Below are positions 16,398-61,580 of a stretch of 64,000 bases of DNA, in pieces. Location of the stretch: assembly GCA_039714435.1 (NCBI GenBank), contig JBDLJJ010000001.1, positions 3,717 to 67,716 on the forward strand, in the 5' to 3' direction. Under the pieces are notes generated by a model that saw only the letters and a program-made list of their open reading frames with translations, had not been told where the DNA came from and did not search any database. The position numbers were made by a program, and so were the translations under genes. Source of the stretch: Gemmatimonadota bacterium. Its GTDB lineage: Bacteria; Gemmatimonadota; Gemmatimonadetes; Palauibacterales; Palauibacteraceae. Within the stretch, counting starts at the first letter, position 1. Each line of letters starts with the position of its first letter.

Positions 16398-19343
16398 CTA
16401 GCGAAGCAGGAGCAGCTTTCCTGACTGGGTCTGGCCCTCGAAGCGGAACACGTACATGTACACTCCGGCCGCGGCTTCGCGGCCTTCGGCCAGCCTGCCG
16501 TCCCATGTGGGTGTGCGGAGCTGGACTCCGGGGTCCGTGGCGATCCGCTCGCGCACCATCAGGCGACCGGCCAGATCGTAGATCTCGAACAGCAACTCGC
16601 TTCCAGCGCCGCGCTCGGAGGCAGGCAAAGAGTACGGGAACGTAATAGGGCCTGATCCGATGCGAAGCGGATTGGGGAACGGAGCCAGGACCTGGAATTG
16701 GCCGCCGGTCACAGGTGGCTCGATGTCGGTTGCCCGCAGTTCGGCCAGGCGATCGAGAGCGGCTTGTTCAGTATCTGCCACCAGCAGCCAGAACCTGAGG
16801 AGAGCGTTTTCGCCCGGCTGAAGATCGAATGGACCTACGCTGAGCATCGCGGCCCGGTCGTTGGCCGACCCATCTCCGGGTAGACCCGCCGTCCCTCCGC
16901 CCCGGGCCAGGGCGAGCTTTATGGCGTCGGTAAAGTCGCCCTGCAGCACTCCGCTGCCCACATCGTAGAACAGGCCGCTCGAGGTCCCGAGTGGAACATC
17001 GGCGAAGCCGAGCACTGCCTGGTCCGACGCGATCAGGGTTACGGGTCCGCCGCCCGCGGCGGCCTGGGCGGCCATGGCTTCGGCGGCGGAGTTCCAAGCC
17101 AGGGCGTCTCCACCCAGGTCCCAGTCGGCGAACAGCCCGGGCGTGAGATCGGCGATCCGCGTTCCTCGCTGATTCTGTACTGACAGGGTGATCTCCAGCG
17201 CCCCCACGCCCGCGCTTTCCGTGACTTCGTACAGCGCATCGATTTGAACGCCGAGGGGAGACAGCGCCTCGAAATCGTCGAACTGGGCCTGTGCCGACGT
17301 CGTTTGTACGTCCGTGATACCCCGCGAAGGGGCCCAGTCCGTCTCGGCCGCCGCGGGTCCGGACTTCAGTCCCGGACGATCGAGCACCGTGTTGTAGATG
17401 CCGTCCGAAATCAGGCCGCCTCCGGCGACGAAGATTGAGCCGGCCGTCAGCAGCTCTGTTCCAGCCCAGCGGAAGCCGGATGAGGCCGCAATCTGGCCCA
17501 AGCGGCCGAAATCGTTGGCGCCGGCCTGCAGGCCCCCCGCCGTCAGAACAAACCCTCCGAAGAAGTCTGGCGGAGCCAGGAGCAGAGCGCGGTTGAAGAC
17601 GGCTGCGCCTCCAAGATTAAACAGGGTGGCGCTGAGCACACCCGCGCCGGAGCCGGGCCGGTCGGTGGCAATCTCGAGGCGGCCCGAAGCCGCCAGCGGC
17701 CCGATCTGGGTGACGGCGGTTCGCTGGCCTGTCTGCAGCTCGAGCCGGCCGCCGGGCCACGTGCCGGATCCTCGATTCATGAGCTCAACCCACACGGAAT
17801 CGACTGACGTTCGCGCCACCGCGACCTGCAGGGAAACAGACGCGAAGGACGGATTGGCGAGCTGTACGGCCGCCGGTACATCGAGCAGGCCCGCACCGGT
17901 ATCGTTGTCGGGGCCCGCCAGGCCCAGGTCCTGCGCGCTGTTCATCAGAAAGCGCTTGGCCTGCTCGGGAGTGGCGGCGGGCGCGATCTGGCGCATGAGG
18001 GCGACCGCCCCGGTGGCGGCGGCAACCGAAAACGAGGTGCCTTGAGCCGTGAATCCGGTGGAGCGAACGCGTCCCGAGCCGTCCGCGACGATCACAGGTA
18101 CTGTGCCCGGAGCGGCGAGTTCCGGCTTGATCCCCCCGCCGCAGGGAGAGGGTCCGCGGGCGCTGAAGTCAGCCACGCTCACGGGCCCCGAGCCCTGCGT
18201 AGCGCCGACGGCCATGTTCCGGATACCCGCGTCGTCCCGGGCGGCCGGAAAAGCGACGCTGGTGGGATCCGGTCCGCCGTTCCCGGCCGCGAACAGGACT
18301 GCTATTCCGGCAGCTTCAGCCGCGTCGATAGCCGAGTACAGTACGTCGGAACACAGGTCAAAATCAGCGGCCCCGAAAATCCCCCAGCTATTGTTGATCA
18401 CGCTGGGAGCGTCGTCCGTGCCTGGCACCCCGTCCGGATCCATGGCCCACTGAAAAGCCTGCAGCAAGACCGAGCGCCGCGTATAGATGTCGCCGCCGAA
18501 ATCCTCGAACACGCGCGCCGCGATCCACTCGGCTTCAGGGGCGGTTCCCGTCACCACGTCGAGACCGTCCGCCGCCACGAGCTGCGTGCCGTCCGGCAGC
18601 ACCAGCGTGTCGCCGGCCGGGAGCGCCCCGACAGCGGTAAGCGCGACCTGAGTCCCGTGCCCGATTAGATCCTGTGGCAGCGTAGATCTCCGAAACGGAT
18701 CGAACCAGGAGGCGCGCAGCGCGGTTCTATTGCCTCGCCAGCGGCCCGCCAGCATGGCGTTCAGGATGTCCGCTCCGGTATCGAAGAACGCGACCGTGAC
18801 CCCGGCTCCTGTGACGCCCTGGTCCCAGACAGCGTCGGCGCCAATGGTCTGCATGGCCTGGGACGTGAAGCTGGGGACGTGAACTACTGAGCGCACGGGA
18901 TCCAGAACCACCGGGAGCCGCTCGTCCAGATACACACGGCGCACTTCCGGCTGCGCCGCCAGGCGCGCGATTCCAGCCGCCGTGGCAACCACGGAAGCGG
19001 CGGGAACGACCCAGAATCGCTCCCGGACTCGCACGCCTCCCTGGTCCACGACGTCGTCCAGGGGCGTCATAAGCTCGGCGGCGCGGCGCTGAAGCTGAAA
19101 CACACCTGTCGGCTGTGGGCCGTCGCGGTATTCGACCACGACCTCCAGGCTATCCGGCGCTACGGCGCTCGCCAGAACCTGGCTCAGCCGCGGGCTGAGA
19201 ACCGGCTCCTGTACCGGCCCCTGCTCCTGGCCGTAGGCGGCCGCCACCCCCGGCCCGATAGCCAGCGGGCCCATTCCAACCGCAAGCAGCACCGTCCGCC
19301 GCAGCCGCCGGGAAGCGGCCCGCCACGCTTCAAGACACCTCAT
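16398..19343 (-). CDS. S8 subtilisin-family serine peptidase with a C-terminal sorting-type beta-sandwich domain.
   Basis: 981 aa with a signal peptide and the catalytic triad contexts FFDTGADI (Asp), HGTQVA (His) and GTSFSVAAATG (Ser). The roughly 80-aa C-terminus (LFEIYDLAGRLMV...WDGR...AAGVYMYVF...GKLLLLR) resembles Por/T9SS-type or FlgD-Ig-like sorting tails. Confidence 0.8.
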   Translation of the reverse strand: MRCLEAWRAASRRLRRTVLLAVGMGPLAIGPGVAAAYGQEQGPVQEPVLSPRLSQVLASAVAPDSLEVVVEYRDGPQPTGVFQLQRRAAELMTPLDDVVDQGGVRVRERFWVVPAASVVATAAGIARLAAQPEVRRVYLDERLPVVLDPVRSVVHVPSFTSQAMQTIGADAVWDQGVTGAGVTVAFFDTGADILNAMLAGRWRGNRTALRASWFDPFRRSTLPQDLIGHGTQVALTAVGALPAGDTLVLPDGTQLVAADGLDVVTGTAPEAEWIAARVFEDFGGDIYTRRSVLLQAFQWAMDPDGVPGTDDAPSVINNSWGIFGAADFDLCSDVLYSAIDAAEAAGIAVLFAAGNGGPDPTSVAFPAARDDAGIRNMAVGATQGSGPVSVADFSARGPSPCGGGIKPELAAPGTVPVIVADGSGRVRSTGFTAQGTSFSVAAATGAVALMRQIAPAATPEQAKRFLMNSAQDLGLAGPDNDTGAGLLDVPAAVQLANPSFASVSLQVAVARTSVDSVWVELMNRGSGTWPGGRLELQTGQRTAVTQIGPLAASGRLEIATDRPGSGAGVLSATLFNLGGAAVFNRALLLAPPDFFGGFVLTAGGLQAGANDFGRLGQIAASSGFRWAGTELLTAGSIFVAGGGLISDGIYNTVLDRPGLKSGPAAAETDWAPSRGITDVQTTSAQAQFDDFEALSPLGVQIDALYEVTESAGVGALEITLSVQNQRGTRIADLTPGLFADWDLGGDALAWNSAAEAMAAQAAAGGGPVTLIASDQAVLGFADVPLGTSSGLFYDVGSGVLQGDFTDAIKLALARGGGTAGLPGDGSANDRAAMLSVGPFDLQPGENALLRFWLLVADTEQAALDRLAELRATDIEPPVTGGQFQVLAPFPNPLRIGSGPITFPYSLPASERGAGSELLFEIYDLAGRLMVRERIATDPGVQLRTPTWDGRLAEGREAAAGVYMYVFRFEGQTQSGKLLLLR

Positions 19344-19364
19344 ACGCCTCCTCTCGGGTCACTT

Positions 19365-19378
19365 GGCCGCCCAAGATA
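19365..19378. repeat. Exact 14-mer GGCCGCCCAAGATA, copy 2, upstream of the S8 peptidase gene.
   Basis: It is identical to 9154-9167. Confidence 0.5.
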
Positions 19379-19426
19379 GAGGCGGCTGTTCCCAAAACCA
19401 ACTCAGCCGGGCCGCGTCCGAGCCGC

Positions 19427-19455
19427 TTGTGTTTCGGTTCCTATTCGGGTATACT
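19427..19455 (+). promoter_or_regulatory. Putative sigma-70 promoter of lexA (-35 TTGTGT, 17-bp spacer, -10 TATACT).
   Basis: The hexamers TTGTGT and TATACT are read directly at 19427-19432 and 19450-19455. The Shine-Dalgarno AAGGAG sits at 19515-19520, 9 nt before the ATG. Confidence 0.4.
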
Positions 19456-19472
19456 CTGTTCGGCTTTATTTC
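19432..19472 (+). promoter_or_regulatory. Candidate LexA operator: two direct-repeat boxes, TTTC-N7-ATTC (19432-19447) and GTTC-N7-TTTC (19458-19472).
   Basis: The boxes overlap the promoter spacer and the start region. They resemble the GTTC-N7-GTTC direct-repeat LexA boxes of Alphaproteobacteria and Acidobacteria. A TTCGG pentamer recurs four times. Confidence 0.3.
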
Positions 19473-19529
19473 GGTTACGGACTGAGATGCGGTTCACCGG
19501 CCACAGCGATTTCCAAGGAGCCCGCCACC

Positions 19530-20141
19530 ATGGCACTCACGAGAAGGCAGAAGCAGATCCTCGATTTCATCGAGAGTTTCCTCGACACTCATGGCTACTC
19601 GCCAAGCTTCGAAGAGATCGCGGCCTTCTTCGGCTACAGGTCTCTTGCCACGGTGCATGAGCACCTCTCTAACCTCGAGGCCAAGGGATACATCAGGAAG
19701 AACTACAACGAGAGTCGTTCTATCGAGCTGGCTCAGACAGACATGCGCCTCTCCTCTGTCACGCTTCCCCTCCTCGGCCTCGTCGCCGCGGGTGAGCCTA
19801 TCGAGGTTATCGAGCAGCAGGAGATGATCGCCGTCCCGGACGACATGGTATCGGGCTCGGCCAGCACACACTTCGTTCTGCGCGTGCGCGGGCAATCGAT
19901 GATCGAAGAGCAGATCCGCGACGGAGATTATGTCATTGTTCAGTCCCGGGAGACGGCGCACAACGGCGAGATGGTCATCGCGCTGGTGGACGGAGATAGC
20001 GCGACGGTCAAGAAGTACTACCGCGAAGACGGCGGCCGCGTGCGGCTGCAGCCGGCCAACCCACTGCTGACACCTCTCTTCTTCGATGAGGACAGAGTGC
20101 AGATCCAGGGCATAGTGGTCGGAGTCATACGCAAGTACTGA
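19530..20141 (+). CDS. lexA: LexA repressor (SOS regulator, S24 peptidase).
   Basis: 203 aa. It has an N-terminal wHTH (LTRRQKQILDFIESF...SPSFEEIA) and a C-terminal autoprotease with the RVRGQSMIE (Ser) and KKYYRE (Lys) contexts. Confidence 0.9.
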   Translation: MALTRRQKQILDFIESFLDTHGYSPSFEEIAAFFGYRSLATVHEHLSNLEAKGYIRKNYNESRSIELAQTDMRLSSVTLPLLGLVAAGEPIEVIEQQEMIAVPDDMVSGSASTHFVLRVRGQSMIEEQIRDGDYVIVQSRETAHNGEMVIALVDGDSATVKKYYREDGGRVRLQPANPLLTPLFFDEDRVQIQGIVVGVIRKY

Positions 20142-20371
20142 GCGAAACCACCAGGGAGATCAGACTATGGCCAACCGTTCCAGACGCCGCCCCTTTGTCA
20201 TCGGATACATATCAGGAACGAAGGTGACGATGTGGTTTTTGCGGGCTACCCGGCCTCCGATCAAAGGTCCCTGGACTCTGGCCCAACTCAGCCATGACGC
20301 CTCCGCGGAGCGCCGCACGGCCTGAATTTTCCCGGCTGGCCCAGTCAGGTTCCGCCCGGTAGGTTCGCCCG

Positions 20372-21178
20372 GTGGAGCACGGAGAGAACGGAAAAATTCG
20401 CGCCACGGTCCACTACGACGGGACCGGATTTCACGGCTCGCAGCGTCAACCCGCCGCGCGAACCGTGCAGGGCGAGGTAGAGCGCTGTCTGCGGAGGCTT
20501 TTCGAGGAAGCCACCCGGGTCGACGCCGCCGGACGCACCGATACGGGGGTGCATGCCGCCGGCCAGGAAATAGCTTTCACTCCTCCCCCCGGCTGGGATC
20601 CGCCCGAGCTTCGCCGGGCTCTGAACGCAGTACTTCCCGGCGACATCTGGATCGAGTCGCTCACCGAAGCAGAGCCTGATTTCCATCCACGGTTCTCGGC
20701 CACTGGACGGCGATACGAGTATTATGTTGGAACCGCCGCCGACTTCATGGCGCCCTCCTGGCTCAACCGGGTCTGGCAGTTTGGCAGCCCGCTGTCGACA
20801 GATATCTTGAGAAGCGCAGCCAAGCCGACGCTGGGACGTCATTCATTTGCGCGGCTGTCCAAGACTGGAGCAGTGGAGAAGAGTACGATCTGCTGCATTG
20901 AGAAGGCGGAATGGACAGACATGGGGGGAGGGAACGTGAGGCTCACAGTAGTGGCGGATCGTTTCCTACACCGTATGGTACGGTATCTGGTAGCTACGAT
21001 GGTCGATATCGCCCTGGAGAAGAGACCTCTGACTGACATCTCGGCCTTGCTCGCCGCAAGGAAGGCACGCCCACCCGAGCCCGCGCCAGCGGTAGGCCTT
21101 TACCTGACTGGAGTTCGCTACGCAGAGGGCTGGAACCGCGCACCTGGAGTGCCCGGGCTGGGAGCGGTGCGCGCATGA
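20372..21178 (+). CDS. truA: tRNA pseudouridine(38-40) synthase TruA.
   Basis: 268 aa with the catalytic Asp context GRTDTGVHAAGQEIAF and N-terminal YDGTGFHGSQRQ. It has a GTG start. Confidence 0.85.
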   Translation: MEHGENGKIRATVHYDGTGFHGSQRQPAARTVQGEVERCLRRLFEEATRVDAAGRTDTGVHAAGQEIAFTPPPGWDPPELRRALNAVLPGDIWIESLTEAEPDFHPRFSATGRRYEYYVGTAADFMAPSWLNRVWQFGSPLSTDILRSAAKPTLGRHSFARLSKTGAVEKSTICCIEKAEWTDMGGGNVRLTVVADRFLHRMVRYLVATMVDIALEKRPLTDISALLAARKARPPEPAPAVGLYLTGVRYAEGWNRAPGVPGLGAVRA

Positions 21179-22734
21179 AATCCCGGGCCTCACGGCTGGC
21201 TCTCAGCCAAGCCTCACGGCTGGCTGGCGGCGAACTCGGGTCCGCCCGGGCATGGGTCGTGGCCCTGCTTCTGGCCGCGTTCCCTATCGGCCTCGCCCTG
21301 GGAGGTGTTCTGTCGCCCTCCGCCGACGCACCCGGTCAGGCGGAGGCGGCCCGGAGCGACACCCCCAACCTGATCCGCACCAGCGCGGCCGATGCCGGAG
21401 TTGAGTCCCCGCAGCAGCGGCCGCTCGCGCAGCAGGCAGAACCGGCGAGACAGCAAGCTCCGCCGGAAGGCAGTGCCCGCTACACCCCGATCGTGAGAGC
21501 GGCCAACCGGGTCTCCCCCTCCGTGGTCAGCGTCACAGTACTCCGCACGGTCAGTGAATCGCGGCGCTCCAGTCCGTTCGACTTCTTTGTTCCACGCCGC
21601 TTCGAGCGCACGGTTCGTGGTCTCGGATCGGGGTTCGCGATCAACGATCGCGGACACGTGCTGACCAACGACCATGTGGTCAGCGACGCCGATTCGATCG
21701 TGGTGACTGACAACCGCGGCAGAGTGTTCCAGGCCAGCGTGGTCGGATCCGACCCCCTGACCGATGTGGCGCTGCTCAAGATCCCCGCCGGAGAGATTCC
21801 CGCCGCACCGCTCGGAGTGTCGTCTGACATCATGGTTGGTGAACCCGCCATCGCGATCGGTAATCCGTTCGGATACCTGCTGGCCAACTCGGAAGCCACC
21901 GTGACGGTGGGCGTCATCTCCGGAGTGGGCCGGGACTTCAGGGGCCAGGACGAGTCGCTCATGGCGGATCTCGTGCAGACAGACGCCTCCATCAACCCCG
22001 GCAATTCAGGCGGCCCGCTGGTCAACGCCGAAGGTGAGGTCATCGGAATCAATTCATCTATCTTCTCGCGCTCGGGCGGCTCGGAGGGGCTTGGTTTTTC
22101 CATCCCCATTGATCGGGCGCTGCGAGTAGCCGAGGAGCTTGACCAGTACGGACGTATTCGCCGGCCCTGGGTCGGGCTGTGGCCGAGCGAGGTAATCGTG
22201 GACGACCGCATCCCGCAGACAGCGGTTCGTAGGGTCGCGGACAGTTCTCCGGCTGACCGCGCCGGCCTCGTGGCGGGCGACCTCCTGATCTCGCTGAACG
22301 ACAGGCCCGTGGACAGTTCGATCGGCTGGGAGCTGGGCCTGCTGGACGCCGGCGTCAATTCACAGGTACGGGTTACGTACGAGCGTGGCGGGCGGCGGCG
22401 ATCAGTCACTCTTGACGTGGAAGAGCTGCCTTCGAACATGGCCGAGCGCGTACAGGTCGTGCGGGGTCTGGAGCTCATCACGCTCACCCCGAGCATCGCC
22501 CTGGAAAGGAGACTGGACATCGAGCGAGGGGCACTGATCTCGGAAATCGAGTCTCAGGCCAGCGATGTCACCGGACTCCGCGAGGGTGACGTACTCCTGT
22601 TCATCAATCGTGAGCCGGTCTCGGACGCGCAGACAGCAGGAGAACTCTTTCAGTCCAATGCCGGCCGCGGTAGGATTGTCGTAGAGTTCTTTCGCGACGG
22701 ACGGCAGTACCGAACCCTCTTCTCTGTCGGCTAG
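21175..22734 (+). CDS. HtrA/DegP-family periplasmic serine endoprotease with two PDZ domains.
   Basis: 519 aa with a signal/TM, a trypsin-like triad (HVLTNDHVV, D, GNSGGPLVN), and two PDZ-like C-terminal segments. It has an ATGA overlap with truA. Confidence 0.85.
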   Translation: MKSRASRLALSQASRLAGGELGSARAWVVALLLAAFPIGLALGGVLSPSADAPGQAEAARSDTPNLIRTSAADAGVESPQQRPLAQQAEPARQQAPPEGSARYTPIVRAANRVSPSVVSVTVLRTVSESRRSSPFDFFVPRRFERTVRGLGSGFAINDRGHVLTNDHVVSDADSIVVTDNRGRVFQASVVGSDPLTDVALLKIPAGEIPAAPLGVSSDIMVGEPAIAIGNPFGYLLANSEATVTVGVISGVGRDFRGQDESLMADLVQTDASINPGNSGGPLVNAEGEVIGINSSIFSRSGGSEGLGFSIPIDRALRVAEELDQYGRIRRPWVGLWPSEVIVDDRIPQTAVRRVADSSPADRAGLVAGDLLISLNDRPVDSSIGWELGLLDAGVNSQVRVTYERGGRRRSVTLDVEELPSNMAERVQVVRGLELITLTPSIALERRLDIERGALISEIESQASDVTGLREGDVLLFINREPVSDAQTAGELFQSNAGRGRIVVEFFRDGRQYRTLFSVG

Positions 22735-60861: not shown

Positions 60862-61580
60862 GCTCCCTCCTTCTTCGGCTTTGCCGGACGGACTACTACC
60901 TGTCCAGAGAATCGCGCGTCTGCTTCGAGAACCGGATCCGAACTCGGCCGGCTGCTGAGTGCTGCTTCGATTCGGCGCAGGCCCAGCAGGGGATCCGACA
61001 AGGGAAGAACCATTCGGCCCGCTGGGCTGGCTTCGAGGAGAATGAGCTCGACTCCGTCCCCAGCCGAGGTCAACCTGGCCTCCGAAATCGTACCGAAAAC
61101 GGCTGGCCGCGCCTCGAGCAGTTCCGCCAGGCACCTCACGACCGTTCGGTCAGATCCCGGCTTGGGCACGATCGGCAGATCGAGCATGTGCGTGGCCGGA
61201 TCGATCGCCAGGGGCTGCCCTTCCCCGTCTATCGGAACGAGTCTTGGAGTGGCTGCCACAGCTACTGGAACCACTTCGTCAATTCGGAAGGTCACCCGGC
61301 GCAGCCCGCTCTTGCGGGCACTCGCGGCGACAACCAACGGGTGAGCTTCTACGCGTCTTTCCCAGATCGACGGATCGTCCCAGATCGACGATTCGGATCC
61401 CAGCGCTGCCAGCTCCCTTATCTCATCGGGACTCGTGAAGATCGTGCCTTCCACGGCTATTTCAGCCACCGTGAACAGAGGCAGATGAGACAGCATGGCG
61501 GGTCCCCAGTCGGGTAGGGTGGCGATCAGAAACACCGCGATTCCGGTCAACACGAGCCGGCGTCGATTGACCTTGCTCAC
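60858..61580 (-). CDS. ftsQ: Cell division protein FtsQ/DivIB.
   Basis: 240 aa with an N-terminal TM (LVLTGIAVFLIA) and a POTRA domain (FTVAEIAVEGTIFTSPDEI). Confidence 0.8.
   Translation of the reverse strand: MSKVNRRRLVLTGIAVFLIATLPDWGPAMLSHLPLFTVAEIAVEGTIFTSPDEIRELAALGSESSIWDDPSIWERRVEAHPLVVAASARKSGLRRVTFRIDEVVPVAVAATPRLVPIDGEGQPLAIDPATHMLDLPIVPKPGSDRTVVRCLAELLEARPAVFGTISEARLTSAGDGVELILLEASPAGRMVLPLSDPLLGLRRIEAALSSRPSSDPVLEADARFSGQVVVRPAKPKKEGA

What the first reader, a model, noticed from the sequence alone, without database searches (positions are those of the whole stretch)
19427..19475. The lexA promoter has overlapping tandem direct-repeat boxes ([G/T]TTC-N7-[A/T]TTC, twice), a candidate non-canonical LexA operator.
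Upstream of lexA there is a clear sigma-70-like promoter (-35 TTGTGT, 17 bp, -10 TATACT). It is overlapped by two boxes: TTTC-N7-ATTC (19432-19447, in the spacer) and GTTC-N7-TTTC (19458-19472, at or near +1). This resembles the direct-repeat GTTC-N7-GTTC LexA boxes known from Alphaproteobacteria and Acidobacterium, rather than the palindromic E. coli or Gram-positive boxes. Two autoregulatory boxes positioned over -35/-10 and +1 is the classic repressor geometry. The LexA motif for this lineage may not be defined yet.
Basis: partly seen in the sequence, partly recalled or inferred. Interest (0 to 1): 0.5.

Follow-up and report, generated by a model that had tools for sequence, protein, structure and literature searches.

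The report
Direct-repeat LexA operator, TTCGG-N6-TTCGG
The two repeated boxes in front of this Gemmatimonadota lexA gene are almost certainly the sites where the LexA repressor shuts off its own promoter; the same box sits in front of lexA and recA across the phylum and in Patescibacteria, so it is a solid but unsurprising new example of a known kind of SOS operator.

Summary
The conserved unit is TTCGG-N6-TTCGG, a direct repeat with an 11-bp period. Box 1 (19433-19448) fills the spacer between -35 TTGTGT and -10 TATACT. Box 2 (19459-19474) covers the predicted transcription start.

The gene downstream is a bona fide LexA from a Gemmatimonadota bacterium. Of 81 Gemmatimonadota lexA loci (LexA 64-98% identical), 76 carry two exact boxes and 5 carry one. 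In 535 kb of the same loci, only one exact box lies anywhere else.

The box also overlaps recA promoters in two Gemmatimonadota lineages, including four Longimicrobium loci picked without reference to the box. It sits in four of four Patescibacteria lexA promoters, whose LexA proteins are among the closest relatives.

The LexA recognition helix SLATVHEHL is invariant in all 81 loci. Two relatives with Lys in place of Glu44 lack the box.

The best explanation is autorepression by LexA, confidence about 0.87. It is not the alphaproteobacterial GTTC-N7-GTTC motif, though it shares the architecture. I found no published Gemmatimonadota LexA motif. A direct-repeat Patescibacteria motif is published, but I could not read that paper. 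I rate this a new member of a known kind, of moderate interest.

The parts
19427..19432 (+). -35 hexamer TTGTGT of the lexA promoter
   Evidence: Read directly from the sequence. The homologous position is TTGCnn in 75 of 76 aligned relatives. The strict consensus scan does not call it.
19433..19448 (+). LexA box 1, TTCGGTTCCTATTCGG. It is a direct repeat of TTCGG with an 11-bp period and fills the -35/-10 spacer.
   Evidence: Exact match. An exact box at the same place in 76 of 81 Gemmatimonadota lexA promoters. The same placement in Patescibacteria lexA promoters L241, L246 and L249.
19450..19455 (+). -10 hexamer TATACT
   Evidence: Read directly from the sequence. Relatives keep G-TA-nnn-T immediately after box 1.
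19459..19474 (+). LexA box 2, TTCGGCTTTATTTCGG. It starts 4 bp after the -10 and covers the predicted transcription start.
   Evidence: Exact match. A second box is conserved 21 or 26 bp downstream of box 1 in 67 of the 76 two-box loci. Low-GC relatives L078-L080 keep only this box. recA promoters of Longimicrobium have a box in the same post -10 position.
19515..19520 (+). Ribosome-binding site AAGGAG
   Evidence: Read directly from the sequence; it ends 9 nt before the ATG.
19530..20141 (+). lexA coding sequence, 203 aa. Helix 3 is SLATVHEHL (residues 38-46). The cleavage site is Ala87-Gly88, with Ser123 and Lys161/162.
   Evidence: Pfam LexA_DNA_bind (1.6e-19) plus Peptidase_S24 (4.4e-30). 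PDB LexA hits 3k2z (1e-39) and 3jso. Residue positions.

Best explanation
**What it is.** The two TTCGG-N6-TTCGG boxes are the operators through which LexA represses its own promoter.

**How it works.**
1. Each 16-bp box offers two TTCGG half-sites one helical turn apart, so both lie on the same face of the DNA.
2. The two winged-helix domains of a LexA dimer bind them head to tail.
3. Box 1 occupies the -35/-10 spacer and box 2 the transcription start, so bound LexA excludes RNA polymerase.
4. After DNA damage, RecA filaments trigger LexA self-cleavage at Ala87-Gly88, using Ser123 and Lys161/162. The operators are freed and lexA is transcribed, as is recA in the phylum.

**Shown here.**
- The presence, position and very strong conservation of the boxes at lexA.
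- The recurrence of the box at recA.
- An intact LexA domain set and catalytic residues.
- Co-variation of the box with the helix-3 sequence.

**Inferred.**
- That LexA itself is the binding protein.
- That one dimer binds one box.
- That binding is head to tail.
- That the boxes repress transcription.
For: **1. The gene is a LexA.** It has the HTH and S24 domains and matches solved LexA structures. The Ala-Gly, Ser and Lys residues are all present.

**2. Footprint at lexA.**
- 76 of 81 Gemmatimonadota lexA upstream regions have two exact boxes, and the other 5 have one. The LexA proteins are 64-98% identical and the loci range from 0.45 to 0.74 GC.
- A Gemmatimonadaceae locus at 58% identity also has two boxes.
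- There are 65 distinct 16-mers among the 157 boxes, so the spacers drift while TTCGG stays fixed.

**3. Unbiased discovery.** TTCGG is the most enriched 5-mer in the 200 nt upstream of lexA: 327 observed against 22 expected, present in 81 of 81 loci. The dominant spacing between copies is 11 bp.

**4. Specificity.** In 535 kb of window plus loci, both strands, only one exact box lies outside lexA promoters.

**5. Independence from the promoter hexamers.**
- L078-L080 and L014 keep only the downstream box.
- The offsets between boxes are 21, 26 or 37 bp.
- Patescibacteria locus L242 has the box inverted.

**6. Recurrence at recA.**
- A metagenome scan for the box 95-155 nt upstream of the RecA FGKG motif gave 33 hits, 30 of them recA.
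- 12 are Longimicrobium or Longimicrobiaceae, and 8 belong to a second Gemmatimonadota lineage. In these the box abuts or overlaps the -10.
- Four distinct Longimicrobium recA loci were chosen by RecA similarity alone. All have TTCGC-N6-TTCGG at the same spot, next to a conserved -35 and -10, while the intervening spacer varies.

**7. Protein and site co-vary.**
- Helix 3 SLATVHEHL is invariant in all 81 loci.
- Patescibacteria LexAs with S[LVI]AT[VI]H[EQ]H have the same box in 4 of 4 distinct lexA promoters.
- Two relatives with SLATVHKHL, at 57% and 51% identity, have no box.
Against: - No binding or expression data exist for any of this.
- The recA evidence comes from other Gemmatimonadota, not from this genome.
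- The window itself holds no other SOS gene to test.
- A PSSM scan of the window and of +/-3 kb around 80 lexA loci found no further sites. +/-10 kb around two more lexA loci contained only housekeeping genes. No regulon member beyond lexA and recA is shown.
- The metagenome recA hits were selected for the box, so only the four Longimicrobium loci are an unbiased sample, and those four are related to each other.
- My estimate of about 4-6 chance hits in that scan is a rough calculation, not a control run.
- The linker between the LexA domains is short, about 4 residues longer than in E. coli (alignment). Head-to-tail binding is therefore assumed, not modelled.
- The helix-3 correlation with Lys variants rests on only two loci.
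Confidence: 0.87

Rival explanations
1. The boxes are operators for a different DNA-damage or stress regulator, not LexA, which happens to control both lexA and recA in these phyla.
For: No experiment links LexA to the box. The sequence data only show that something conserved binds or acts at lexA and recA promoters.
Against: - LexA autoregulation is close to universal (established knowledge).
- The strongest sites, and the only doubled ones, are at lexA itself.
- The box tracks the LexA helix-3 sequence across two phyla, and is missing where that helix carries Lys.
- The half-site (G/C)TTCGG contains GTTCG, the half-site of LexAs with a similar helix. That last point rests on my own knowledge of the Gram-positive box.
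Confidence: 0.07
2. The TTCGG repeats are part of the promoter architecture, such as spacer or discriminator elements read by RNA polymerase or a sigma factor. Alternatively they are a chance repeat kept by shared ancestry.
For: - Box 1 always abuts the -35 and the -10.
- The promoters are homologous, so some conservation is expected.
Against: - Spacer bases inside the boxes and flanking bases vary freely, while all four TTCGG stay exact across 64-98% protein identity.
- The box moves relative to the hexamers: it lies after the -10, in the spacer, over the -10, or inverted.
- It is absent from every other promoter in 535 kb.
- It appears at non-homologous recA promoters.
Confidence: 0.03
3. 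The element acts in RNA. UUCG-containing hairpins in the 5' leader, of the cUUCGg tetraloop kind, would control stability or translation.
For: Box 2 lies downstream of the -10, so it is transcribed. UUCG is a well-known stable tetraloop (my own knowledge).
Against: - Box 1 lies upstream of the start site and is just as conserved.
- The bases flanking TTCGG do not pair consistently.
- In many recA and Patescibacteria promoters the only box lies between -35 and -10, where it is not transcribed.
- The fixed 11-bp spacing points to recognition of a DNA face.
Confidence: 0.01
4. It is an iteron-like or packaging-type 11-bp repeat of a mobile element or replication origin.
For: Many viral contigs carry TTCGGNNNNNN tandem arrays. 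Some carry 16-bp boxes at a 26-bp period next to terminase genes.
Against: - Here there are exactly two boxes inside a chromosomal promoter.
- Synteny is conserved and housekeeping, with truA, htrA and pur genes.
- There are no mobile-element genes nearby.
- The viral arrays have other spacers and contexts.
Confidence: 0.01

Closest known systems
Patescibacteria (CPR) LexA-binding motif. It is reported as a direct repeat by Sanchez-Osuna, Barbe and Erill, Environ Microbiol 2017, which is cited in PMC7739468 and was not readable here.
   Same: - My own data show exact TTCGG-N6-TTCGG over the core promoter of 4 of 4 distinct Patescibacteria lexA genes (L241, L242, L246/L248, L249).
- Two Curtissbacteria-type recA genes also carry it (L222, L231).
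- These LexAs are among the closest relatives of the window's LexA (49-52% identical for P0298, P0309, P0321, P0325 and P0331) and share the helix S[LVI]AT[VI]H[EQ]H.
   Different: - It is a different phylum.
- The promoters seen have one box rather than two.
- Many Patescibacteria LexAs are fused to a DNA methyltransferase.
- I could not check that the published consensus is this sequence.
Alphaproteobacterial (and Acidobacterium capsulatum) LexA box GTTC-N7-GTTC (PMC4951493, introduction)
   Same: - It is a direct repeat.
- It has the same 11-bp period and the same TTC core.
- It is found in lexA and recA promoters.
   Different: - The conserved pentamer here is TTCGG.
- The G before TTC is present in only 9 of 76 first half-sites in box 1 and 13 of 76 in box 2.
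- The GG after TTC is not part of the alphaproteobacterial consensus.
- The protein is 203 aa with helix SLATVHEHL.
- None of the best 150 LexA representatives carries the alphaproteobacterial type of helix as I remember it, KSGIHRLI. That comparison rests on memory.
Firmicutes/Actinobacteria LexA (Cheo) box GAAC-N4-GTTC (PMC4951493)
   Same: - The half-site (G/C)TTCGG contains GTTCG.
- Helix 3 has TVH-HL, as in the B. subtilis LexA as I remember it (SSSTVHGHL).
   Different: The half-sites are arranged as a direct repeat 11 bp apart, not as an inverted repeat. No GAAC half-site is present.
Balneolaeota LexA direct repeat TTACACATATTTTWTACATA (PMC7739468)
   Same: It is another case of LexA reading a direct repeat. 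That paper states that this ability arose several times.
   Different: The sequence is unrelated.
E. coli lexA promoter with two SOS boxes (established knowledge)
   Same: The regulatory logic is the same: two operators in the repressor's own promoter, overlapping the core promoter and the start site.
   Different: The E. coli boxes are CTGT-N8-ACAG palindromes.

Membership tests
LexA-autoregulated SOS operator (general) | The downstream gene encodes a LexA with an N-terminal winged-helix domain, an S24 peptidase domain, an Ala-Gly cleavage site and a Ser/Lys dyad. | tested here: met
   Pfam LexA_DNA_bind plus Peptidase_S24. PDB LexA hits. A87-G88, S123 and K161/162.
LexA-autoregulated SOS operator (general) | The site overlaps the core promoter or transcription start of lexA. 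| tested here: met
   Box 1 lies between the -35 and -10, and box 2 starts 4 bp after the -10. The hexamers are conserved in relatives, but the strict consensus scan does not call them.
LexA-autoregulated SOS operator (general) | The site is conserved in orthologous lexA promoters beyond the background level. | tested here: met
   76 of 81 loci have two exact boxes. There are 65 distinct 16-mers. TTCGG is the top enriched 5-mer.
LexA-autoregulated SOS operator (general) | The same motif recurs upstream of other SOS genes. | tested here: met
   This is met for recA in two Gemmatimonadota lineages and in Patescibacteria. It is not shown in the window's own genome or for any other SOS gene.
LexA-autoregulated SOS operator (general) | LexA binds the site, and the gene is derepressed after DNA damage. 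| not testable with these tools
   This needs EMSA or footprinting, and expression data.
Alphaproteobacterial-type GTTC-N7-GTTC box | Direct repeat with an 11-bp period. | tested here: met
   A spacing of 11 bp dominates, with 157 pairs.
Alphaproteobacterial-type GTTC-N7-GTTC box | The conserved tetranucleotide is GTTC in both half-sites. | tested here: not met
   The G before the first TTC occurs in 9 of 76 cases (box 1) and 13 of 76 (box 2). Before the second TTC it occurs in 44 of 76 and 39 of 76. The invariant part is TTCGG.
Alphaproteobacterial-type GTTC-N7-GTTC box | The LexA protein belongs to the alphaproteobacterial lineage. | tested here: inconclusive
   No alphaproteobacterial-like helix appears among the best 150 representatives. 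The closest named relatives are Gemmatimonadota and Patescibacteria. No alphaproteobacterial LexA sequence was compared directly.
Gram-positive GAAC-N4-GTTC (Cheo) box | Inverted repeat of GAAC and GTTC with a 4-bp spacer. | tested here: not met
   There is no GAAC half-site and no dyad symmetry in 19420-19480.
Patescibacteria LexA direct-repeat motif | The same box is present at Patescibacteria lexA and recA promoters. | tested here: met
   L241, L242, L246/L248 and L249 for lexA; L222 and L231 for recA.
Patescibacteria LexA direct-repeat motif | The sequence is identical to the published, EMSA-validated consensus. | not tested
   The paper (doi 10.1111/1462-2920.13826) is not in the held library. 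PMC7739468 only says that it is a direct repeat.

The most novel reading that the evidence does not exclude
Gemmatimonadota and Patescibacteria share one LexA lineage, marked by helix 3 S-x-A-T-V/I-H-E/Q-H, that reads a head-to-tail TTCGG-N6-TTCGG repeat despite a short interdomain linker. The half-site is the Gram-positive GTTCG turned from an inverted into a direct arrangement. The Glu/Gln to Lys change at helix position 44 marks the switch to another motif in sister lineages. If true, this would be a natural series for studying how a dimeric repressor changes half-site orientation. It would also hint at either deep common ancestry or lateral transfer of lexA between two very distant phyla.
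Probability: 0.4. Interest if true: 0.55.

Novelty: new member of a known kind. Interest (0 to 1): 0.4.

Why it matters
It gives Gemmatimonadota a sharply defined candidate LexA box. This is a widespread soil, freshwater and sponge-associated phylum with no described SOS regulon in the literature I could search. With the box, the SOS regulon of any Gemmatimonadota genome can be predicted by a simple scan and tested by EMSA.

It adds a further phylum to the short list in which LexA reads a direct repeat. It also ties that phylum to the Patescibacteria motif, which bears on how LexA specificity evolves.

It does not reveal a new mechanism.

Tried and rejected
- **Strict sigma-70 scan of 19000-20400.** It found no promoter. 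I kept the promoter assignment only because both hexamers are conserved in relatives.
- **PSSM scan for more sites.** I built a matrix from 157 boxes and scanned the window and 80 lexA loci. Nothing outside lexA promoters scored above weak, intragenic matches.
- **Signature search for other SOS genes.** I looked for RecA, UvrA, UvrB, RuvB, UvrD and DinB in the window and loci and found none. The long window ORFs I read in translation include recG, comEC, purL, ppdK and aspS, and the window also holds a dcw cluster. The Pfam scan covered only LexA, its neighbours, FtsQ and FtsA.
- **Double-box scan of viral contigs.** It returned more than 120 hits. They are mostly 11-bp tandem arrays or terminase-proximal arrays and are unrelated to LexA.
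- **+/-10 kb around lexA in two further lineages.** Synteny is housekeeping only (trp, truA, htrA, pur), with no extra box.
- **The search for homologous proteins with LexA.** It returned only close relatives, at or above 71% identity, so it did not help with outgroups. The representative search did.
- **Reading the Patescibacteria SOS paper.** It is not held. Text searches for TTCGG together with LexA found nothing.
- **Considered and rejected.** These were an RNA tetraloop element, an iteron, a pure promoter element, the Deinococcus-type RDRM/DdrO system (a palindromic motif with no resemblance; from memory), membership of the alphaproteobacterial motif family, and a palindromic reading of the boxes (none exists).
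- **Third exact box.** The match at 61082-61097 is treated as probable chance (0.27 expected per window). It was not followed up.

Full report
**The observation**

The region reads TTGTGT (19427-19432), a 17-bp spacer, then TATACT (19450-19455). lexA starts at 19530, behind an AAGGAG ribosome-binding site.

Comparison with relatives shows that the conserved unit lies one base to the right. It is TTCGG-N6-TTCGG: box 1 at 19433-19448 and box 2 at 19459-19474.

The window has three exact copies, against 0.27 expected from shuffles. Two of them sit 26 bp apart in this promoter.

The strict sigma-70 scan does not call the promoter, because TTGTGT is a poor match to TTGACA. Both hexamers are nevertheless conserved in relatives, as TTGCnn and TAnnnT.

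**The gene and the organism**

The 203-aa product has LexA_DNA_bind and Peptidase_S24 domains. It matches solved LexA structures, with T. maritima 3k2z at 1e-39 and E. coli 3jso also hit. The Ala87-Gly88 cleavage site, Ser123 and Lys161/162 are all present.

A scan of one genome per species returned 80 loci with LexA 64-98% identical. Almost all are Gemmatimonadota MAGs, including Longimicrobiales, Gemmatimonadales and Candidatus Palauibacter.

**Footprinting at lexA**

- Of 81 upstream regions, 76 have two exact boxes and 5 have one.
- The loci span 0.45-0.74 GC.
- A Gemmatimonadaceae locus at 58% identity also has two boxes.
- Without any prior pattern, TTCGG is the most enriched 5-mer in the 200 nt upstream of lexA. 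It is seen 327 times against 22 expected, in 81 of 81 loci. The dominant distance between copies is 11 bp.
- The six spacer bases vary, giving 65 distinct 16-mers among 157 boxes.
- The base before TTC is not conserved.
- In 535 kb of window plus loci, on both strands, only one exact box lies outside a lexA promoter.

Box 1 always fills the -35/-10 spacer. Box 2 follows at an offset of 21 or 26 bp in 67 of 76 loci, and at 37 bp in Gemmatimonadaceae. Low-GC relatives L078-L080, and also L014, keep only the downstream box. The box is therefore not just part of the promoter hexamers.

**Recurrence at another SOS gene**

The window holds no other SOS gene. The flanks of the lexA loci hold no further sites.

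I therefore scanned the metagenome collection for the box placed 95-155 nt upstream of the coding pattern of the RecA F/Y-G-K-G-x-[IV]-M motif. This gave 33 hits, of which 30 are recA genes. My rough estimate of chance hits is 4-6. That figure is a calculation, not a control run.

The recA hits break down as follows:
- **Longimicrobium/Longimicrobiaceae, 12 hits.** The arrangement is TTGTGC, 17-18 bp, TGTAAACT, then the box immediately after.
- **A second Gemmatimonadota lineage, 8 hits.** The RecA is 72% identical to the first group, and the box overlaps the -10.
- **Candidatus Curtissbacteria, 2 hits.** The box lies between the -35 and the -10.
- **Gallionella, 2 hits.** A canonical GAAC-N4-GTTC box lies next to the match, so I read these as chance.
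- **The rest, 6 hits.** These are unnamed lineages and one 'Clostridia' MAG.

The scan selected for the box, so it is a biased sample. To correct for that, I fetched Longimicrobium recA loci chosen by RecA similarity alone. All four distinct loci have TTCGC-N6-TTCGG, one mismatch from the box, at the same position. They also share a conserved -35 and -10, while the spacer between them varies.

Longimicrobiales lexA loci L067 and L074 carry the double box. So lexA and recA promoters both carry the box within that one order.

**The protein side**

Helix 3 is SLATVHEHL in all 81 LexAs.

A search of 1.84 billion representatives shows that the nearest LexAs outside the close family carry S[LVI]AT[VI]H[EKQ]H. 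The named ones fall into two groups:
- Gemmatimonadales and Gemmatimonadaceae, with Glu at this position.
- Patescibacteria such as Nealsonbacteria, Buchananbacteria and Paceibacterota, with Gln or Glu.

Four distinct Patescibacteria lexA promoters all carry an exact box over the core promoter:
- L241: TTGACT + TTCGGTTTTTGTTCGG + TATATAAT.
- L246/L248: TTGACT + TTCGGTTTTCTTTCGG + TATAGAT.
- L249: TTGACAC + TTCGGTTTTTTTTCGG + TATTAT.
- L242: an inverted copy after the -10.

Two relatives with SLATVHKHL, at 57% and 51% identity, have no box. In the HMMER alignment to E. coli LexA, the Glu/Gln/Lys position aligns with Glu45. As I remember the LexA-DNA structure, that residue contacts bases.

**Mechanism**

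The most economical reading is classic autorepression:
1. A LexA dimer sits on each 16-bp box, with its two half-sites one helical turn apart on the same DNA face.
2. Bound LexA blocks RNA polymerase at the spacer and at the transcription start.
3. RecA-stimulated self-cleavage relieves the block after DNA damage.

The binding protein, the stoichiometry, head-to-tail binding and repression itself are all inferred, not shown.

**Comparison with known systems**

LexA direct-repeat motifs are known from several groups:
- Alphaproteobacteria and Acidobacterium, as GTTC-N7-GTTC (PMC4951493).
- Balneolaeota (PMC7739468).
- Patescibacteria, according to PMC7739468, which cites a paper I could not read.

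The present box shares the period and the TTC core with the alphaproteobacterial motif but fails its consensus. Its half-site contains the Gram-positive GTTCG, arranged directly rather than inverted. It is the same sequence that I find at Patescibacteria lexA and recA promoters.

Text searches found no description of a Gemmatimonadota LexA motif.

**Verdict**

It is a new member of a known kind: a direct-repeat LexA operator. It is useful for predicting SOS regulons in Gemmatimonadota and for studies of LexA motif evolution, but it is not mechanistically surprising.

The main gaps are:
- no binding data;
- no regulon member beyond lexA and recA;
- no recA data from this very genome.

Noticed in passing
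window 61082-61097 (- strand): This is the third exact box, TTCGGTACGATTTCGG. It lies inside the ftsQ ORF, in the same orientation as the dcw genes and about 224 nt upstream of the likely ftsA start. It is the only exact box outside a lexA promoter in 535 kb. It could be chance (0.27 expected per window) or a LexA site acting on ftsA/ftsZ.
   Followed up: partly
P0298/L242, P0321/L246-L248, P0331/L249, P0325; many of P0318-P0416: Many Patescibacteria LexA homologues are 445-841 aa fusions of LexA_DNA_bind plus Peptidase_S24 with an N6/N4 or Eco57I-type DNA methyltransferase. Restriction-like or Abi genes lie next to them (MwoI_N, Mrr_N, AbiEii). Their own promoters carry the TTCGG-N6-TTCGG box.
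   Followed up: partly
L163/L170, L183 (also L092, L148, L132): Viral contigs carry two to six 16-bp TTCGG-N6-TTCGG units, adjacent units mostly 26-27 bp apart. They sit next to a G/C-rich hairpin-like run and about 300 nt upstream of a terminase-large-subunit-like gene. They look like packaging-site repeats, not SOS boxes. Many other viral contigs have plain 11-bp TTCGGNNNNNN tandem arrays.
   Followed up: partly
L223 (recA of a MAG labelled Clostridia bacterium, MBQ2444184.1): The recA promoter reads TTGCAT + TTCGGGCAATATTCGG + CTATAAT. That is the direct-repeat box in the spacer, not the GAAC-N4-GTTC box expected for Firmicutes. Either the motif reaches further than two phyla, or the MAG is misassigned, or this is chance.
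   Followed up: no
L211, L216, L212, L219: These are recA genes of unnamed lineages (GC 0.48-0.65) with an exact box. In L211, L216 and L212 the box lies between a good -35 and -10, for example TTGACAg + box + tTATACT. In L219 no such hexamers were identified. Their phylum is unknown.
   Followed up: no
L243 (4.17-Mb contig, LexA 57% identical) and L244 (51%): These LexA relatives have helix SLATVHKHL, with Lys instead of Glu44, and no TTCGG repeat upstream. Their operator motif was not identified.
   Followed up: partly
L234-L238: In Longimicrobium, recA lies a few kb downstream of ftsA-ftsZ, after genes for an M23 peptidase, a His_biosynth-family protein and an aminotransferase. In the window, the same dcw end is followed by other genes and by recG, with no recA.
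   Followed up: no
window 20167-20325 (+): A 52-aa ORF lies between lexA and truA. It has no support and is probably not a gene. truA (20372-21178) and an HtrA-type protease (21175-22734) follow lexA, as they do in relatives.
   Followed up: no
L241 4954-6168: In a Buchananbacteria contig, a Y-family polymerase gene (IMS domain) lies about 1.1 kb downstream of lexA on the same strand. It has no box of its own directly upstream, so it may be co-transcribed or regulated from elsewhere.
   Followed up: no
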